Of a DNA stretch of 64,000 bases, positions 16,674-40,826 are shown piece by piece; the stretch's first letter is position 1; every line of letters starts with the position of its first letter. The DNA comes from Minisyncoccota bacterium (GTDB lineage: Bacteria; Patescibacteriota; Minisyncoccia; Phycocordibacterales; BOKC01), in assembly GCA_030583745.1 (NCBI GenBank), contig CP129473.1, positions 530-64,529 on the forward strand. Direction: 5' to 3'. Below the pieces are notes generated by a model. The model saw nothing but the letters and a program-made list of their open reading frames with translations. It did not search any database and was not told the DNA's origin. Position numbers and translations under genes: made by a program.

Positions 16674-16758
16674 GGAGGGTTCGCATAGCGGTCTAGTGCG
16701 CACGCTTGGAAAGCGTGTATGTCGAAAGGCATCAAGGGTTCGAATCCCTTACCCTCCG
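16674..16758 (+). tRNA. tRNA-Ser (anticodon GGA)
   Basis: 7-bp acceptor stem GGAGGGT/ACCCTCC. Anticodon stem cacgc/gcgtg with loop TTGGAAA. The long variable arm, T-arm GGTTCGAATCC and 85-nt length fit tRNA-Ser. Confidence 0.85.
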
Positions 16759-30066: not shown

Positions 30067-31029
30067 ATGAAAATTTATGTGACGAGAAAAATTCCCGAAG
30101 CAGGAATAAGTCTTTTAAAAGATAAGGGTTATGAAATTGATGTCAGCCCGCATGACAGAGTGTTGGAAAAATCGGAGTTGATTTCCGCTCTGAAACAAAA
30201 GCCGTATGAGGCGGTTTTGTGTCTTTTAACCGACAAAATTGACGCGGAAGTTTTTGATGCTGTTCCGACAGCCAAAATTTTTGCCAATTATGCTGTCGGA
30301 TTTAATAATATTGATATTGAAGAAGCAAAAAAGCGCGGGATTGTTATAACCAATACGCCAGATGTTTTAACCGACTCTGTTGCCGAGCACACCTTTGCTT
30401 TAGTTATGGCAATTGCTCACCGAATTGTTGAAGCCGACCAATTTGTTCGCGATGGAAAATATGTCGGCTGGGCGCCGGAGCTTCTACTCGGCGCGGATAT
30501 TAAAGGTAAGACCTTGGGAATTTTAGGCGCAGGTAGAATCGGCTCGCAAGTCGCTTTTCAGGGCAAGAATGGTTTTGGTATGAAAATTGCTTATTACGAC
30601 ATCAAGCCGAATTCTGAAATTGAAAAAGAGTTTGGAGCAACCTTTTATCCGTCAGTGGAAGGATTACTTGCTGTTGCCGACTTTGTTTCGCTTCACGTGC
30701 CACTTTTGGATTCAACTCGGCATTTGATAAATGCCGACCGCTTGCGGAAAATGAAAAAAACCGCCTATCTCATAAACACCTCGCGCGGACCGGTGGTGGA
30801 TGAAAAAGCGCTTTTTGAAGCGCTTCGCGACGGGGTAATTGCCGGCGCCGCTCTGGACGTTTTTGAAGAAGAGCCAAAAGTTTATCCGGGGCTAGAAAAA
30901 CTGCAGAATGTTATTTTAACTCCTCACATCGCTTCGGCTACTTTTGAAACTCGTTCCAAAATGTCTGAAATGGCTGCCGAAAATATCATCACCTTTTTTG
31001 AAGGTCAAGAACCGCCGAATGTGGTCTAG
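30067..31029 (+). CDS. D-isomer-specific 2-hydroxyacid dehydrogenase (glyoxylate/hydroxypyruvate reductase-like)
   Basis: GILGAGRIG NAD motif. Conserved catalytic Arg/Glu/His in a formate/glycerate dehydrogenase-like fold. Start taken at MKIYVTRK. Confidence 0.85.
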   Translation: MKIYVTRKIPEAGISLLKDKGYEIDVSPHDRVLEKSELISALKQKPYEAVLCLLTDKIDAEVFDAVPTAKIFANYAVGFNNIDIEEAKKRGIVITNTPDVLTDSVAEHTFALVMAIAHRIVEADQFVRDGKYVGWAPELLLGADIKGKTLGILGAGRIGSQVAFQGKNGFGMKIAYYDIKPNSEIEKEFGATFYPSVEGLLAVADFVSLHVPLLDSTRHLINADRLRKMKKTAYLINTSRGPVVDEKALFEALRDGVIAGAALDVFEEEPKVYPGLEKLQNVILTPHIASATFETRSKMSEMAAENIITFFEGQEPPNVV

Positions 31030-31280
31030 GCGCTAGGTTTTTAGGCTCTAGGGTCTAGCCAATAGGGTTTAGGGCGTAGTCCGCCTCCGCCAGTTGACGG
31101 AGGCGGCTTGGCTGGAAAAGCCCTTATCGGGTATTCTATGAGTTAACGGGTGTTGAACTTTGGGGTTGAATTTACCTACGCGAGTATTGACATATTTATT
31201 AAAATATGATAGGTATATTAACGGAATTCACAGGGTGTTCCTGTGGAAGTTCTTCGTTAGCTTGCTGAAAGGAGCAAAGC

Positions 31281-31946
31281 ATGAAGCCTCGTACAGTTCG
31301 GGTCCTCTGCAGGGGTATTTCGCCCATTCTCATGGACCAGATGACAGAGGAGACCCTCGACAGCCTCGCAACCAGCGTCCGGCAGAACAAACCCAAGGAC
31401 AGACCGTTTGCGGATGTCGCGGAGGAGAAAATCTACCGCGACCCTATGACAGAGCGCATCGGCATCCCCTCGGAGATGCTCTTCGCTTGTTTGGTCGCAG
31501 CGGGCCGGAAGGTCAAGAACGGCAAGAGCCAGATCTCCACAGCAACCTCCTCGACCGTTCCGGACTTTCTCGAGATCCCCGACTTTTTCTTTCCGTTTCT
31601 CGGCATCCCCGAGAACGTGGAGCCGCGATCGGAAGACGAGAGGCAGCACTGGAAGGTGGATAAGAGACGAGGGCGTCTGCCCATCAACGGAACCGCTGTC
31701 TGCCTCATCCGTCCCCGCTTCAACAACTGGGAATTCAAGGTCACAGTGATCTACGATGCCGACAAGATCGATGGTTCTACGCTGAAGGCTCTCTTTGTGA
31801 ATGCCGGCAGTGGCCAAGGTCTTGGTTCGTTCCGCCCCAACTGCAGGGGTACCTTCGGGAAGTTCGTTGTCGTTTCTTGGGAGGAGACGGCCGGCGCTGT
31901 GAAGGAGGACGAGACGGAAGAGACGGACGTTCTCGCGGCTGCATGA
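31281..31946 (+). CDS. Hypothetical 221-aa protein with a C-terminal glycine-rich loop (possibly RAMP/Cas6- or Cas7-like). Unverified.
   Basis: Strong SD (aaaggag, 6 nt before the ATG). GC-rich with good coding periodicity. Segment FVNAGSGQGLGSFRPNCRGTFGKF is reminiscent of RAMP glycine-rich loops. Terminator at 32007..32045. Overlapping antisense ORFs are treated as spurious. Confidence 0.5.
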   Translation: MKPRTVRVLCRGISPILMDQMTEETLDSLATSVRQNKPKDRPFADVAEEKIYRDPMTERIGIPSEMLFACLVAAGRKVKNGKSQISTATSSTVPDFLEIPDFFFPFLGIPENVEPRSEDERQHWKVDKRRGRLPINGTAVCLIRPRFNNWEFKVTVIYDADKIDGSTLKALFVNAGSGQGLGSFRPNCRGTFGKFVVVSWEETAGAVKEDETEETDVLAAA

Positions 31947-32006
31947 CTGTGTGAAGTCAAGTCCAGCATCCTGGACTATACTCTAGTTAAGTACGCTCGC
32001 GTGCTC

Positions 32007-32045
32007 AAACCCCGTCGCTTCACCGTGGCGGGGTTTCTTTTCTAA
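32007..32045 (+). terminator. Intrinsic terminator after the 221-aa gene
   Basis: Stem aaaccccg/cggggttt followed by tttcttttct. Confidence 0.7.
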
Positions 32046-32134
32046 ACATCCAACGGTTTATACTACAGTCAAGTAGAGTCTAGCAAGGTAGGGTTAGGTC
32101 GAGTGCAATAGAGTTCAGTAGTTCAGTATAGAGT

Positions 32135-32681
32135 GAAGTTGCTAAAAAGTAACTTTGCTAATTAGAGGAGGTTAAAATTGTAGTGACGTGTAGTTCTGTT
32201 CCGTCGTCTGCGGTGGGGTGAAGTATACGGCAGAATCTTCGAAAGGGGATTCTGTCAATTATATATCGTGTCGTCCACTACAGTGCAGTTCGGCAAAGTT
32301 AGGTACGGTGGTCAGGTGGCGATTTTCGAGAGAAAGCCGCCACCTCTTTGCTTTCGGTGCGGTGTTTTGGGGTCCAATACCATGAACTATTGTGCAACAA
32401 GAGTCTTCGAAAGGAGATTTTACTGTTTTTAACTACAGCTCCCCAGACTACTCTTAGGTAGTGTTGCCTGACGCAAGGTATAGTGCAGGGCAGAATCTTC
32501 GAAAGGAGATTCTGTCGCTTTCTTCAGTGGAGTTAAGTTACCTCCCGTCGCGTATAGTCCACTACACGTCAGAATATCTGAAAAGATATTCTGACATTTC
32601 CTTGGTCTGTAGCAACCTGCAGTAAGGTGGGCTCCAGTATAGTTTAGTTCAGGTTAGAATCACTGAAAAGTGCTTCTAACA
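32135..32681 (+). repeat. Array 1: seven non-identical hairpins about 80-97 nt apart, capped by GNRA tetraloops (6x GAAA/GAGA, one AAAA)
   Basis: Hairpins: 32135-32156, 32231-32254 (cagaatcttc GAAA ggggattctg), 32315-32344 (..GAGA..), 32399-32421, 32491-32514, 32570-32593 and 32653-32680. Stems differ but keep pairing through compensatory and G.U changes that only pair on the + strand RNA. Motifs ACUACAG and GUAUAG recur between hairpins. Confidence 0.7.
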
Positions 32682-32744
32682 CTTACGATTTAGGTGGTGT
32701 GTAGTTCACTTAAGTAGACTCCAGCAAGCTACAGTATTGTACAC

Positions 32745-32785
32745 AACCCGCTTCGTCTTAAATGGTGAAGCGGGTTTTTGTTTGA
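32745..32785 (+). terminator. Intrinsic terminator closing array 1
   Basis: Stem aacccgcttc/gaagcgggtt followed by tttgtttg. Confidence 0.75.
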
Positions 32786-32872
32786 CAAGATCCAAAAAAT
32801 ATGTATTCTTGTTACTGGAAGTTCATTGTGAACTTGCACCATCTGAAACATCTGGAATATTGGAGATCAAGA

Positions 32873-34741
32873 ATGACAACAGAAACGAGAAAAAGAGGCG
32901 CTCTGAACTTGGAACGCCTTGCGGGAAACTTCCCAAGCCGATTCTCAAGAATGAGAGTTGCGCAGGAAGAAGCACTCAAATTCGTGGCAGAAAACGGCTC
33001 AAGCATTGTCGAAGCACCAACAGGGTCGGGAAAGACTGCGATTGAGATTGCCATTCTACGCGCTGGACAAGAGGTGGGAATGGAAACTCTCTTCCTCATC
33101 GTTCCCAACAAGACGATCCTCGGACAAATCAGAGAAGAGTTTCCAGGTGATGTGAAAGTCGCATTGGGACGAAACGAGCATCCGTGTCTCTACTACGAGG
33201 AGAAGAAGACAGAGATTACAGTTGAAGGAGTCAGGCTTCTGTCAGATGATCCTGAAAGCATCAAAGCGGATGAGATTCCGTGCTCGATGCTTCTTGATTG
33301 TCCGCATCGAGTTGACCAGGAAACTGGAGAGACTCACACAAAGGGTGCCTTCCCGTGCCCTTACCTTCAGCAAAAGTACGAGGCCAAACAGGGCGGTATC
33401 GTGCTTTGCACGATGTCTTTCTATCTCTTCACACAACTTTTCAGCAGAGAGTGGGAACGGCCGAATATCTTGGTGATCGATGAAGCACATCGCATCGCCG
33501 AGGTCTTTCGAAACGCTCTGTCCTACGAAATCTCTGATCACCACATCGAGAAGGCGGTAGGAATCCTCAAGCTCATTGGAGCAGGAGAAGAATCGACAGC
33601 GCTGGAGTTGTTTCTCAAGAAGATGATTAGAATCATCAAGGGGAAATCCAGAGGGAAGCTGCCTCTCCTCGAACCAGAGGAGCTCTACACCTTGATAGAG
33701 ACGCTATCACTTATCGACACCAAGGAGTTGGGAAAGAAGGTGAGTGGCGCGGTCAAGGAAGGCAAGCTTAACGCCAAGGCAGACAGAACAACGCTTCGCA
33801 AGCTCGAGGTGCTGATTCGAGACTTGAAGCGCTACATTCGATCTTTTGAGTTCTCTATGCCGGCTTCCAACCGACATGCTCTCAACTACACCTACGCCAC
33901 CTGGCGCGAAGAAAAGCAAAAGGGTCAGAAAGTCCAGTACCAACTGGTCATCAAGGCCTACTATGTCGCCCCGCTCATCAAGAAAGTGATGGGCGATACG
34001 ACGGTCTCTTTTTCCGCCACCATTGGCGATCCGGATGTCTTTGGTTTCGAAACCGGAATCAGAGATCCGTTCGTTAGCTTGGGCGGACACTTTCCAGCCA
34101 ACAACACCAGAATCTTTATGCCCTCGGACACTCCGAATCTGGCTATGAATGCCAGGTCAAATCAGGAGCCAACCAGGGTTCTGCGTCGGATCGCCAAGGC
34201 CTGCAAGCGATTTTCCCAAAAGGGAATTCGTTCGCTGGTCGTGGTAGTTTCCAATGCAGAGCGAGACAAATTCCTAATGCTCGCGGAAGAAGAAGACGTC
34301 TATGCTATAAGCTACGGCAACGGAGTCACCGCAAGGGATGCCGCCCAACTCTTCAAGGGAGGAGAAGGTGATGTTCTCGTTGGCACTGCCTCAAACTACG
34401 CTGAAGGTGTTGATCTTCCAAAGAATCTGGCACCGGTCATCTTCGTCCTCCGACCCGGATATCCGAATCCAAAGGACCCGGGCACAATCTTTGAGGAGAA
34501 GAGATTTGGTAGTCAGCGCTGGCAGATCTGGAACTGGAGGGTGATGCTTCAGGCTCTTCAGGCTCGAGGCAGAAACCTGCGAAGCGTCAACGATATCGGC
34601 GTGACTATCTTCATCTCCCAGCAGTTTAGGCGATTTGTTTTCGCATCTCTGCCGGAGAGTCTGAAGGAGTCATATGTTCGTGACAAGACCTTCGATGAGT
34701 GTGTCAATAGTACTCTTGAACACCTGAATAGAGTCCTGTAG
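32873..34741 (+). CDS. DinG/XPD (Rad3)-family SF2 DEAH helicase with a 4-Cys (putative Fe-S) insertion
   Basis: Walker A is EAPTGSGKT and motif II is VIDEAHR. Four Cys lie between motifs I and II (HPC, IPC, DCPH, FPCPY). The C-terminal helicase motif LVGTASNYAEGVDLP is DinG-like. SD GGAG precedes the ATG at 32873. An alternative start is at 32801. Confidence 0.75.
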   Translation: MTTETRKRGALNLERLAGNFPSRFSRMRVAQEEALKFVAENGSSIVEAPTGSGKTAIEIAILRAGQEVGMETLFLIVPNKTILGQIREEFPGDVKVALGRNEHPCLYYEEKKTEITVEGVRLLSDDPESIKADEIPCSMLLDCPHRVDQETGETHTKGAFPCPYLQQKYEAKQGGIVLCTMSFYLFTQLFSREWERPNILVIDEAHRIAEVFRNALSYEISDHHIEKAVGILKLIGAGEESTALELFLKKMIRIIKGKSRGKLPLLEPEELYTLIETLSLIDTKELGKKVSGAVKEGKLNAKADRTTLRKLEVLIRDLKRYIRSFEFSMPASNRHALNYTYATWREEKQKGQKVQYQLVIKAYYVAPLIKKVMGDTTVSFSATIGDPDVFGFETGIRDPFVSLGGHFPANNTRIFMPSDTPNLAMNARSNQEPTRVLRRIAKACKRFSQKGIRSLVVVVSNAERDKFLMLAEEEDVYAISYGNGVTARDAAQLFKGGEGDVLVGTASNYAEGVDLPKNLAPVIFVLRPGYPNPKDPGTIFEEKRFGSQRWQIWNWRVMLQALQARGRNLRSVNDIGVTIFISQQFRRFVFASLPESLKESYVRDKTFDECVNSTLEHLNRVL

Positions 34742-34799
34742 CCTACAGTTTGGTGCGCCAAGTTATTCTAGCGTTTTCTAGAGTCGGGTTCACTACACA

Positions 34800-34835
34800 A
34801 GCGTTCCGAGTAAAATCGGGACGCTTTTTTGTTTG
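34800..34835 (+). terminator. Intrinsic terminator after the helicase
   Basis: Stem agcgttccg/cgggacgct with a G.U pair, followed by ttttttgtttg. Confidence 0.7.
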
Positions 34836-34946
34836 TTATTCCTTTTTTATAAAAAATATGTTATAAAAGTTTTTGGCTTGTTCTTTATAGTTACCTAAAC
34901 CATTCTTTTCTGCGGTGCACTGCCGTATCCTTTCGTGCCCTATAGA

Positions 34947-35243
34947 TCCAGATCCTCGAAAGAGGTTCTGGATAATTTCAGTTACCTCATGTTCTGTACG
35001 GTATGCTGTCGTAACCTTCTCTGAAGGTCTAAACTCCTGAAAGGGGGTTTAGACGATTTTCCAGTAAAGTTCGGCTCAATAACGTAGCACTTACTAAGAT
35101 GCAGGACAGATAAGACAGAGATGTTTTATCTTGTCATTACCAGACTGGTTAGATACAGTGAGGTTAGGTGTCGTGAAGTTGAGTTTAGTCATCTGAAGTC
35201 GTCTGGACTATACGACAGCAGAGATTGAAAAATCTTTGCTGTC
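34947..35243 (+). repeat. Array 2: four or more GNRA-capped hairpins (GAAA, GAAA, GAGA, GAAA) at about 80-110 nt spacing
   Basis: Hairpins: 34947-34972, 35027-35054, 35108-35131 and 35214-35243. The upstream (GUAUAG-like) and CUACAG motifs are the same as in array 1. Confidence 0.65.
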
Positions 35244-35319
35244 ATTGCTCCCTACCCTATACCACTCTTCACTACAGTGTATCCCGGTGTTCTCAAGTGG
35301 TTTTCAGTTAAGTACACAA

Positions 35320-35350
35320 GCTCCGCTTCGGCGGGGCTTTTCTATTGATT
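35320..35350 (+). terminator. Intrinsic terminator closing array 2 (UUCG tetraloop)
   Basis: gctccgc ttcg gcggggc followed by ttttctattgatttt. Confidence 0.7.
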
Positions 35351-40753: not shown

Positions 40754-40826
40754 GCCGCCTTAGCTCAGTTGGTAGAGCAACACTTTTGTAAAGTGAAGGT
40801 CCTCGGTTCAAGTCCGAGAGGCGGCT
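40754..40826 (+). tRNA. tRNA-Thr (anticodon TGT)
   Basis: Acceptor GCCGCCT/AGGCGGC, D-arm GCTCAGTTGGTAGAGC, anticodon loop TTTGTAA, T-arm GGTTCAAGTCC. Length is 73 nt. Confidence 0.85.

What the first reader, a model, noticed from the sequence alone, without database searches (positions are those of the whole stretch)
32135..32681. Array 1: periodic, non-identical GNRA-capped hairpins with compensatory changes
Seven hairpins sit at about 80-97 nt spacing. Examples are cagaatcttc-GAAA-ggggattctg (32231-54) and ggtggcgattttc-GAGA-gaaagccgccacc (32315-44). Others are aagagtcttc-GAAA-ggagatttt (32399-421), cagaatcttc-GAAA-ggagattctg (32491-514) and cagaatatct-GAAA-agatattctg (32570-93). The last is gttagaatcact-GAAA-agtgcttctaac (32653-80). 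Stem sequences vary, yet the helix and the 4-nt GNRA loop are preserved. Mismatches are U.G in the + sense only, which argues for selection on a + strand RNA structure rather than on DNA repeats. Three copies share the cagaat/attctg stem family, which suggests duplication and divergence. Their spacing and hairpin form resemble crRNA repeats (a Cas6-type substrate), but the repeats are not identical and the spacers are about 55 nt and partly conserved.
Basis: seen in the sequence. Interest (0 to 1): 0.85.

Follow-up and report, generated by a model that had tools for sequence, protein, structure and literature searches.

The report
VIPR guide-RNA array beside a helicase
The hairpins are real, but they are the 3' ends of tandem guide RNAs of a VIPR system, a CRISPR-like, RNA-guided DNA-recognition system first described in 2026, seen here in a helicase-linked form in a Patescibacteria chromosome.

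Summary
Seven hairpins lie at 32132-32680, six with GNRA loops, and they show strand-specific G.U pairs and compensatory changes.

Each linker is a run of 9-13 pentamers, NNNGU, on the + strand only. In the 64-kb window this 5-nt period occurs only in the two non-coding blocks that flank the helicase gene.

The 221-aa protein (31281-31946) has a Cas7-like RAMP fold. A profile of its family matches PDB 36pp, "SUSP1 Vipr protein", at E=1.3e-11. Nearly all of about 80 homologous loci carry pentamer arrays next to the gene: GGYNN in prophages and NNNGU in Patescibacteria. In Patescibacteria a DinG/XPD-like helicase is always adjacent.

Two 2026 preprints describe this class. One Vipr protomer binds each pentamer and hides the conserved bases. 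The variable bases then read double-stranded DNA through a gapped code.

The locus is therefore a VIPR system with about 15 candidate vrRNAs, and the hairpins are their 3' tails. It is not a CRISPR array, and the protein is not a Cas6. It is a new member of a known kind. The first conserved G of the canonical GGY motif is not kept here, the tails are hairpins of variable sequence, and the partner is a helicase. No targets were found.

The parts
31281..31946 (+). vipr gene: 221-aa single-RRM RAMP protein with G-loop G180-L-G-S-F-R-P186 and thumb R144-P145
   Evidence: AF2 model pLDDT 91. Foldseek top 50 hits are all Cas7-type RAMPs, mainly Csm3, plus type VII Cas7 and one Cmr chain. Family profile hits PDB 36pp_D 'SUSP1 Vipr protein' at E=1.3e-11. 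Matches phrog_4652 at E=1e-17. No Pfam, PADLOC or NCBIfam hit.
31947..32036 (+). Candidate vrRNA 0: pentamer tract 31948-32006, closed by terminator-like hairpin 32007-32036
   Evidence: Register parse, terminator scan. This stretch lies inside the ~80% identical flank that aligns with relative L089, unlike the array interior.
32064..32159 (+). vrRNA unit 1: NNNGU tract 32064-32131 and tail hairpin 32132-32159 (AAAA loop)
32180..32256 (+). vrRNA unit 2: tract 32180-32228 (9 pentamers, 8 with GU, then AUAC) and tail hairpin 32229-32256 (GAAA loop)
32260..32345 (+). vrRNA unit 3: tract 32260-32313 and tail hairpin 32314-32345 (GAGA loop)
32349..32421 (+). vrRNA unit 4: degenerate tract in which position 5 is still mostly a pyrimidine, and tail hairpin 32400-32421 (GAAA loop)
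32425..32516 (+). vrRNA unit 5: partly degenerate tract with a pyrimidine at position 5 in all 12 full pentamers, and tail hairpin 32489-32516 (GAAA loop)
32519..32595 (+). vrRNA unit 6: tract and tail hairpin 32568-32595 (GAAA loop, no G.U pair)
32599..32680 (+). vrRNA unit 7: tract and tail hairpin 32653-32680 (GAAA loop)
32681..32776 (+). vrRNA unit 8: tract 32691-32744, closed by intrinsic terminator 32745-32776 followed by a U-run
32782..32809 (+). Promoter-like site (TTGACA, 16 nt, TATTCT) in front of the helicase gene
   Evidence: consensus match only
32873..34741 (+). Accessory gene: DinG/XPD-family SF2 helicase of 622 aa (ORF opens at 32801; gene callers start it at 32873)
   Evidence: Pfam DEAD_2 and Helicase_C_2. 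PADLOC typeIV_DinG PDLC01439 at E=1.8e-37, full length. phrog_2488 at E=9e-40. Best PDB sequence match is archaeal XPD at E~2e-8. Adjacent to vipr in 33 loci, nearly all Patescibacteria.
34742..34826 (+). Candidate vrRNA 9: tract directly after the helicase stop codon, closed by terminator 34799-34826
34900..34973 (+). vrRNA unit 10: tract and tail hairpin 34946-34973 (GAAA loop, one U.U mismatch). The A/T-rich stretch 34827-34890 upstream may hold the array promoter.
34974..35054 (+). vrRNA unit 11: tract and tail hairpin 35027-35054 (GAAA loop)
35055..35136 (+). vrRNA unit 12: degenerate tract and tail hairpin 35103-35136 (GAGA loop, bulged)
35137..35243 (+). vrRNA unit 13: the longest tract in array 2 (35140-35213, about 14 pentamers) and tail hairpin 35214-35243 (GAAA loop)
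35244..35339 (+). vrRNA unit 14: tract closed by terminator 35318-35339

Best explanation
The region is one of two vrRNA arrays of a chromosomal VIPR (Viral Interference Programmable Repeat) system in a Patescibacteria genome. The locus comprises vipr (31281-31946), array 1, a DinG/XPD-like helicase gene (32873-34741) and array 2.

Each unit of about 80-95 nt is one candidate guide RNA. It has a tract of 9-13 pentamers NNNGU followed by a 3' tail hairpin of about 12 bp, usually GNRA-capped. The last unit of each transcription block uses an intrinsic terminator as its tail.

The mechanism is inferred from the characterised SUSP1 and P. fulva systems. One Vipr protomer binds each pentamer and sequesters the conserved G and pyrimidine, so that a helical filament of about 10-12 subunits forms. 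The variable bases are presented for gapped pairing with double-stranded DNA, and the bound DNA is silenced. In this clade the filament presumably recruits or cooperates with the helicase, much as CRISPR type IV-A complexes use DinG.

Shown here: the hairpins and their covariation, the pentamer period, homology of the protein to Vipr, and conserved synteny with the helicase. Inferred: transcription and processing of the units, filament assembly, DNA targeting, the pairing rule for this NNNGU variant, and the role of the helicase.
For: 1. The 5-nt GU period occurs only at 32046-32326 and 34731-35221 in 64 kb and never on the - strand. In the logo, positions 1-3 are near uniform, position 4 is G at about 0.85-0.9, and position 5 is U at about 0.87-0.95, with C as almost the only exception.

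2. Protein: a RAMP fold and a profile hit to PDB 36pp 'SUSP1 Vipr protein' at E=1.3e-11 across the whole length. The residues that hold G2 and Y3 in SUSP1 (R138, W178, R179, P180) are invariant as R/F/R/P in 60 homologs (roles from 10.64898/2026.04.26.720927).

3. Nearly every locus that encodes a homolog has period-5 arrays next to the gene: GGYNN in prophages, Chloroflexota and others, and NNNGU in Patescibacteria (examples).

4. The helicase is the only other conserved gene in Patescibacteria loci, and the arrays follow its strand.

5. Tail hairpin covariation. The model finds 54 more tails, all in arrays of related loci.

6. Terminators end each block, and the + strand folds better than the - strand.

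7. The preprints report 9-16 pentamer repeats followed by a structured 3' tail, two-gene loci, helicase or nuclease accessory genes in types III-V, and alternative YNNNG repeats, which are a rotation of NNNGU.
Against: There is no expression data for this locus.

No natural target was found under any skip rule. A local 1-Mb search matched shuffled guides. Five exact scans of viral contigs gave 0 hits. One metagenome scan gave 0 hits, and the other gave 24 hits that look like chance matches in GC-rich coding DNA, none of which extends.

The canonical first G of GGY is not conserved here, so the published pairing rule may not carry over.

The tails vary in sequence, whereas the paper describes an 'invariable' tail.

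The text of the preprint that I could read does not name Patescibacteria, DinG or GNRA hairpins. Assignment to one of its seven types is therefore unverified.
Confidence: 0.88

Rival explanations
1. A degenerate CRISPR array, type IV-like, whose hairpin repeats are cut by a Cas6-like 221-aa protein and whose linkers are spacers.
For: Regular spacing of hairpins. The helicase hits the PADLOC type IV DinG model. The protein has a RAMP fold.
Against: Repeats are not identical, and between relatives whose flanking genes are ~80% identical the array cannot be aligned. No cas1, cas2, cas5, cas6 or cas8 gene lies in this locus or in 33 related loci. The linkers carry a fixed GU every 5 nt, which captured spacers would not. 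The protein is a homolog of Vipr, with Cas7-type rather than Cas6-type fold matches.
Confidence: 0.03
2. A DNA-level element: tandem 5-bp iterons that act as a centromere or origin, bound by the 221-aa protein as double-stranded or single-stranded DNA.
For: In the Anaerolineae relative L071 the gene follows a ParA-type ATPase, and the array sits where a parS site would. Prophage relatives lie in replication and recombination modules. Direct repeats are strand-asymmetric even as DNA.
Against: The hairpins need G.U pairs that become A.C mismatches on the other strand. Array orientation always follows a neighbouring gene. Intrinsic terminators, and in other loci promoters, bracket the arrays. Homologous arrays were shown by sRNA-seq and pull-down to be RNAs bound by Vipr. 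No ParA is present in the window or in any Patescibacteria locus.
Confidence: 0.04
3. A protein sponge or autoregulatory RNA. The pentamer tracts only titrate or scaffold the protein, as TRAP or CsrB targets do, and the variable bases drift neutrally and carry no targeting information.
For: No target was found. In some relatives the variable bases look like decay of a simple (GGCAA)n repeat. Base composition at positions 1-3 is close to genomic.
Against: In the characterised homologs the variable bases are the code and can be reprogrammed. Dozens of different units per genome, up to 3.6 kb in L008, are costly for a sponge. The constant pairing with a DNA helicase points to DNA as the substrate.
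Confidence: 0.05

Closest known systems
VIPR type II systems (Escherichia phage SUSP1, Pseudomonas fulva prophage); preprints 10.64898/2026.04.26.720920 and 10.64898/2026.04.26.720927
   Same: Homologous small RAMP protein (PDB 36pp). Guide RNAs built from about 9-16 tandem pentamers with fixed G and pyrimidine positions and variable positions. A structured 3' tail. Arrays flank the gene in a minimal two-gene locus.
   Different: The pentamer is NNNGU rather than NNGGY, so the first G is not kept. The tail is a simple hairpin, usually GNRA-capped, whose sequence varies with compensatory changes, rather than an invariable pseudoknot. The accessory gene is a DinG/XPD helicase rather than a DNA-binding vap1. 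The locus is chromosomal in Patescibacteria rather than on a phage. Arrays are much longer: about 15 units here and more than 40 in relatives.
VIPR types III-V (accessory nucleases or helicases; host-encoded)
   Same: Host chromosome location, an enzyme as accessory protein, and alternative repeat consensus (YNNNG is listed in the paper's Methods).
   Different: I could not confirm that this clade is one of those types, because the figures and data tables are not held. The text reports sRNA-seq and target searches only for the nuclease types III and V, so the helicase type is uncharacterised.
CRISPR-Cas type IV-A (Csf complex with CasDinG)
   Same: A RAMP filament on a guide RNA works with a DinG-family helicase and without a nuclease. 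The helicase matches a PADLOC type IV DinG model at E=1.8e-37.
   Different: No CRISPR repeats, no Cas5, Cas6 or Cas8, a 5-nt rather than 6-nt period, and fixed bases inside the guide. By sequence against the PDB the helicase is closest to archaeal XPD, not to a solved CasDinG.
TRAP (trp RNA-binding attenuation protein) binding sites
   Same: An RNA tract of about 11 short conserved motifs spaced every 5 nt, one per protein subunit.
   Different: Unrelated protein fold and a regulatory rather than guide function. This is a resemblance in anatomy only.

Membership tests
VIPR system | Vipr protein: a small single-RRM RAMP with G-loop and thumb, homologous to characterised Vipr | tested here: met
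   AF2 pLDDT 91. Cas7-type fold matches. Family profile against PDB 36pp_D 'SUSP1 Vipr protein' gives E=1.3e-11 over residues 2-192. The single sequence gives E=2.5e-4.
VIPR system | vrRNA: tandem pentamer repeats (9-16) with conserved positions alternating with hypervariable ones, in the intergenic DNA flanking vipr | tested here: met
   Tracts of 9-13 pentamers. The signal is unique to the two arrays within 64 kb. The same pattern appears in about 80 homologous loci.
VIPR system | Canonical GGY/NN consensus | tested here: not met
   Only G2 and Y3 are conserved. The G1 position is A 0.51, G 0.27 in the window and near uniform when all guides are pooled. The paper lists YNNNG as an alternative consensus, so this does not exclude membership.
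VIPR system | Residues that hold G2 and Y3 (R138, W178, R179 in SUSP1) are conserved | tested here: met
   R/F/R, plus P139 and P180, in all 28 NGU-type homologs and R/F/R in all 32 GGY-type homologs (P139 is A in one). The G1 contacts are changed in the window (H17 to D, D177 to S), but D177 is retained in other NGU clades, so that correlation is inconclusive.
VIPR system | Structured 3' tail after the repeat tract | tested here: met
   A 12-bp hairpin with 93-95% pairing and covariation at all 12 pairs. The sequence is not invariable.
VIPR system | Minimal locus of vipr plus one accessory (vap) gene | tested here: met
   The DinG-like helicase is the only conserved neighbour, in 33 loci. The flanks in the window are housekeeping genes.
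VIPR system | vrRNAs are expressed and co-purify with Vipr | not testable with these tools
   No transcriptome data. Only terminators, fold asymmetry and G.U strand bias support transcription.
VIPR system | Variable bases specify a DNA target by gapped pairing (1-nt skip rule) | tested here: inconclusive
   No signal over shuffled guides in 1 Mb of local DNA. Zero exact hits in viral contigs for five patterns. Metagenome scans gave 0 hits and then 24 chance-like hits. Exact matching has low power.
CRISPR-Cas (type IV-A-like) | Near-identical direct repeats separated by unique spacers | tested here: not met
   Repeat families are 65-73% identical. Linkers carry periodic GU.
CRISPR-Cas (type IV-A-like) | Cas5, Cas6, Cas8 or Cas1-Cas2 genes | tested here: not met
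   No such Pfam, PADLOC or NCBIfam hits. No other conserved neighbour.
CRISPR-Cas (type IV-A-like) | DinG-family helicase partner | tested here: met
   PADLOC typeIV_DinG PDLC01439 at E=1.8e-37. This shows a resemblance in how it may work, not membership.
ParABS-type partition site | ParA ATPase gene adjacent to the repeat array and its binding protein | tested here: not met
   ParA was seen only in L071-L073 and in none of the Patescibacteria loci.

The most novel reading that the evidence does not exclude
The Patescibacteria clade may be a distinct VIPR variant. Its G1 pocket has relaxed, so the guide may carry three rather than two informative bases per pentamer, under a pairing rule different from the published 1-nt skip. 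Its filament may hand the target to a DinG/XPD helicase. That would make it a functional, and perhaps evolutionary, bridge between VIPR and nuclease-free type IV-A CRISPR systems, carried as very large hard-wired guide libraries by bacteria with tiny genomes.
Probability: 0.25. Interest if true: 0.7.

Novelty: new member of a known kind. Interest (0 to 1): 0.45.

Why it matters
VIPR is a newly reported way of reading DNA with RNA, and only the phage-borne type II systems have been dissected. This locus and its 30-odd relatives show that many Patescibacteria keep a chromosomal form with a helicase partner, a relaxed repeat consensus, hairpin tails and arrays of up to several kilobases.

According to the text I could read, that form has no published expression, target or mechanism data. 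It offers a natural test of two questions: how far the gapped code can vary, and how a helicase is coupled to a RAMP filament without CRISPR machinery.

For genome annotation, a strand-specific 5-nt G-pyrimidine period beside a ~200-aa protein that current family libraries leave unnamed (no Pfam, NCBIfam or PADLOC hit here) is a simple and highly specific marker.

Tried and rejected
- **Rfam.** Searched at gathering threshold on the window and on nine related loci, and at E<=1 on the locus. Nothing was found except a chance GcvB match at E=0.035.
- **tRNA or tmRNA.** None in the region.
- **Fourier power at period 5.** Too blunted by phase slips to be useful. Counting GU in a fixed phase worked.
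- **CRISPR and Cas6 reading.** Rejected; see the rival explanations.
- **TRAP-like or centromere reading.** I held this before the literature search and dropped it once the PDB and preprint matches appeared.
- **Protein-RNA co-variation.** Loss of the G1 contact D177 fits the window's subclade but not the other NGU clades, so it is inconclusive.
- **Codon-register test on guide composition.** Values are near genomic, so it is inconclusive.
- **Target searches under seven pairing rules.** No credible target.
- **Strain comparison.** Three other samples carry a 100% identical locus, so no array dynamics can be seen.
- **Unavailable resources.** The AFDB fold library was not available. The preprint's figures and supplementary tables are not held.

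Full report
**Observation.** The sequence at 32135-32681 is as described. Seven stem-loops of 9-14 pairs lie at 32132-32159, 32229-32256, 32314-32345, 32400-32421, 32489-32516, 32568-32595 and 32653-32680. Six have GAAA or GAGA loops and the first has AAAA.

A mechanical hairpin scan of the whole 64-kb + strand finds six GAAA-capped stems of at least 8 pairs. All six lie in this block or in a second block at 34742-35339. Each hairpin holds 0-3 G.U pairs, and only the G.U-free one forms fully on the - strand. The + strand RNA folds at z=-6.8 against shuffles and the - strand at z=-3.6.

Aligning the 11 hairpins of both blocks gives 93% paired cells, with double-sided changes at all 12 pairs. 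Registers slid by 1-3 columns give 42-52%.

The linkers are not ordinary spacers. GU recurs every 5 nt, as in GUAGU GACGU GUAGU UCUGU UCCGU CGUCU GCGGU GGGGU GAAGU before the second hairpin. A phase-count scan finds this period only at 32046-32326 and 34731-35221 in the window, and never for the complementary AC.

In register, positions 1-3 are near uniform. Position 4 is G at about 0.87 and position 5 is U at about 0.93, with C as almost the only alternative. Even the 'degenerate' units keep a pyrimidine at most fifth positions.

Parsed this way the locus holds about 15 units. Nine lie between the 221-aa gene and the helicase gene, and six lie after the helicase. The last unit of each block ends in an intrinsic terminator instead of a GNRA hairpin.

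**Context.** The window is a ~40% GC bacterial chromosome with Patescibacteria-like housekeeping genes. The segment 31000-35000 is 48-54% GC. It contains only two genes.

- The 221-aa ORF (31281-31946) has no Pfam, PADLOC or NCBIfam match.
- The 622-aa DinG/XPD-family helicase (32873-34741) matches Pfam DEAD_2 and Helicase_C_2, PADLOC typeIV_DinG at E=1.8e-37 and phrog_2488 at E=9e-40. Its best PDB sequence match is archaeal XPD.
- The flanks are a 2-hydroxyacid dehydrogenase gene and ribosomal protein L25.

**The protein.** It has 40 unnamed metagenomic homologs. An AlphaFold model from their alignment is confident, at pLDDT 91. Its best 50 matches in the PDB are all Cas7-type RAMPs, mainly Csm3 of type III-A, plus type VII Cas7 and one Cmr chain. 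It also matches phrog_4652, a phage family of unknown function.

A scan of one genome per species returned 79 loci. In Patescibacteria the helicase is always adjacent and is the only conserved neighbour. The GU-period arrays lie on the helicase strand even when the RAMP gene is divergent, and they reach 3.6 kb in L008.

More distant relatives (24-34% identity) sit in prophage replication modules or plasmid-like elements. A motif-agnostic period-5 scan shows that nearly all of them also carry arrays directly beside the gene, but with GGYNN pentamers. A 5-nt G-pyrimidine period is therefore the constant partner of this protein family.

[quoted passage not shown] It defines VIPR systems as follows:

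- a ~20-kDa ancestral RAMP protein, Vipr;
- vrRNAs of 9-16 YNNGG pentamers followed by a structured 3' tail;
- usually one accessory gene, which is a nuclease or helicase in types III-V;
- alternative repeat consensus NNNGG, YNNNG or NNNNG.

The companion cryo-EM preprint (10.64898/2026.04.26.720927) shows one protomer per pentamer. G1, G2 and Y3 are sequestered, the NN bases pair with the target, and one target base is skipped.

The link to the window is direct. A profile of the window's protein family hits PDB 36pp, 'SUSP1 Vipr protein', at E=1.3e-11 over its whole length, and the single sequence hits it at E=2.5e-4. NNNGU is a rotation of YNNNG. The residues that hold G2 and Y3 in SUSP1 are invariant in all 60 homologs aligned.

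**How it most likely works.** Shown here are the anatomy, the homology, the synteny and the covariation. The rest is inferred from the characterised homologs.

The units are transcribed on the + strand and separated into RNAs of about 70-100 nt. Vipr protomers coat the pentamer tract, one per repeat, and hide G and U. The tail hairpin caps the 3' end. The exposed variable bases then read double-stranded DNA of a competing phage or other mobile element. In this clade the helicase would act on the bound DNA.

The hairpin's sequence is free to drift as long as it pairs, which explains the compensatory changes. A covariance model built from the window's tails finds 54 more, all inside arrays of related loci. 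Pairing is 95%, with 297 double changes, although that alignment is fitted to the model.

Between the window and a relative whose flanking genes are ~80% identical, the array interior cannot be aligned and has five hairpins rather than seven, while the flanks align. The guide content therefore turns over faster than the genes.

**Open points.**

- The first G of GGY is not conserved here. In the window the two SUSP1 residues that read it are replaced (H17 to D, D177 to S). D177 is kept in other NGU clades, so the link is unproven.
- It is unknown whether the third variable base is read.
- I found no targets. Guides did no better than shuffled guides against 1 Mb of local DNA under six pairing rules; the seventh rule only re-finds each guide's own locus. 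Exact gapped or contiguous patterns gave no viral hits. In metagenomes they gave either nothing or 24 chance-like matches in GC-rich coding DNA that did not extend. Exact matching has little power, so this is not evidence against targeting.
- The text I could read does not mention Patescibacteria, DinG or hairpin tails, and it reports experiments only for types II, III and V. I therefore cannot say which of the seven types this is.

**Verdict.** It is an instance of the VIPR class described in 2026, not a CRISPR array, and the 221-aa protein is the filament-forming Vipr rather than a Cas6. I rate it a new member of a known kind, with variant features (NNNGU repeats, variable hairpin tails, a DinG/XPD partner, a chromosomal Patescibacteria host) that are worth experimental follow-up.

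Noticed in passing
window 31000-35000: The two-gene VIPR locus is 48-54% GC in a chromosome of 36-45% GC, which suggests horizontal acquisition. No integrase or repeat boundary was seen.
   Followed up: partly
window 32224-32228, 32478-32488, 32552-32567, 32637-32652, 34940-34945, 35205-35213; also 31976-31981: A short UAUA(G/C) motif, often within GUAUAG or GGACUAUAC, recurs 0-12 nt upstream of the tail hairpins. Several tails are preceded by CACUACAC or ACAC. These may be processing or nucleation signals.
   Followed up: no
L071 6190-8560 (Anaerolineae MAG), also L072 and L073: The vipr homolog follows a ParA-type ATPase gene. It is followed by seven units, each a near-identical ~60-nt long hairpin repeat plus 11-17 GGYNN pentamers. 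This array is much more CRISPR-like in regularity, and it sits in an element with HTH, DnaB-like and RHH genes.
   Followed up: partly
L057 334-2236 (Deltaproteobacteria MAG): A 1.9-kb array of about 16 GGC-type pentamer tracts lies upstream of the vipr homolog. It is the longest found outside Patescibacteria.
   Followed up: no
L001 10700-12270 and L008 3236-6856 (minus strand): Here the arrays are broken into several small transcription units. Each has its own sigma-70-like promoter and a conserved terminator (for example GGAACCCCGATC...GATCGGGGTT), rather than forming one long precursor.
   Followed up: no
L040 and L052 (Victivallales, Myxococcota prophages): Phage vipr homologs sit between a PD-(D/E)XK nuclease gene and AAA_24 (Sak4-like), DUF669 and RusA or ERCC4 genes, that is, inside the recombination and replication module. 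Short pentamer tracts lie next to the gene, on both sides in L052 and downstream in L040.
   Followed up: partly
window 32801-32872: The helicase ORF opens at ATG 32801, but gene callers on identical contigs start it at ATG 32873 (622 aa). The promoter-like site at 32782-32809 overlaps the longer ORF's start.
   Followed up: partly
window 35121-35345: A weak Rfam match to GcvB (23 bits against a 42-bit gathering score, E=0.035) overlaps units 13-14. I judge it a chance match to a U/G-rich structured RNA.
   Followed up: no
window 16674-16758 and 40754-40826: tRNA-Ser(GGA) and tRNA-Thr(UGU) genes. Neither is adjacent to the VIPR locus, so there is no sign of tRNA-targeted integration.
   Followed up: no
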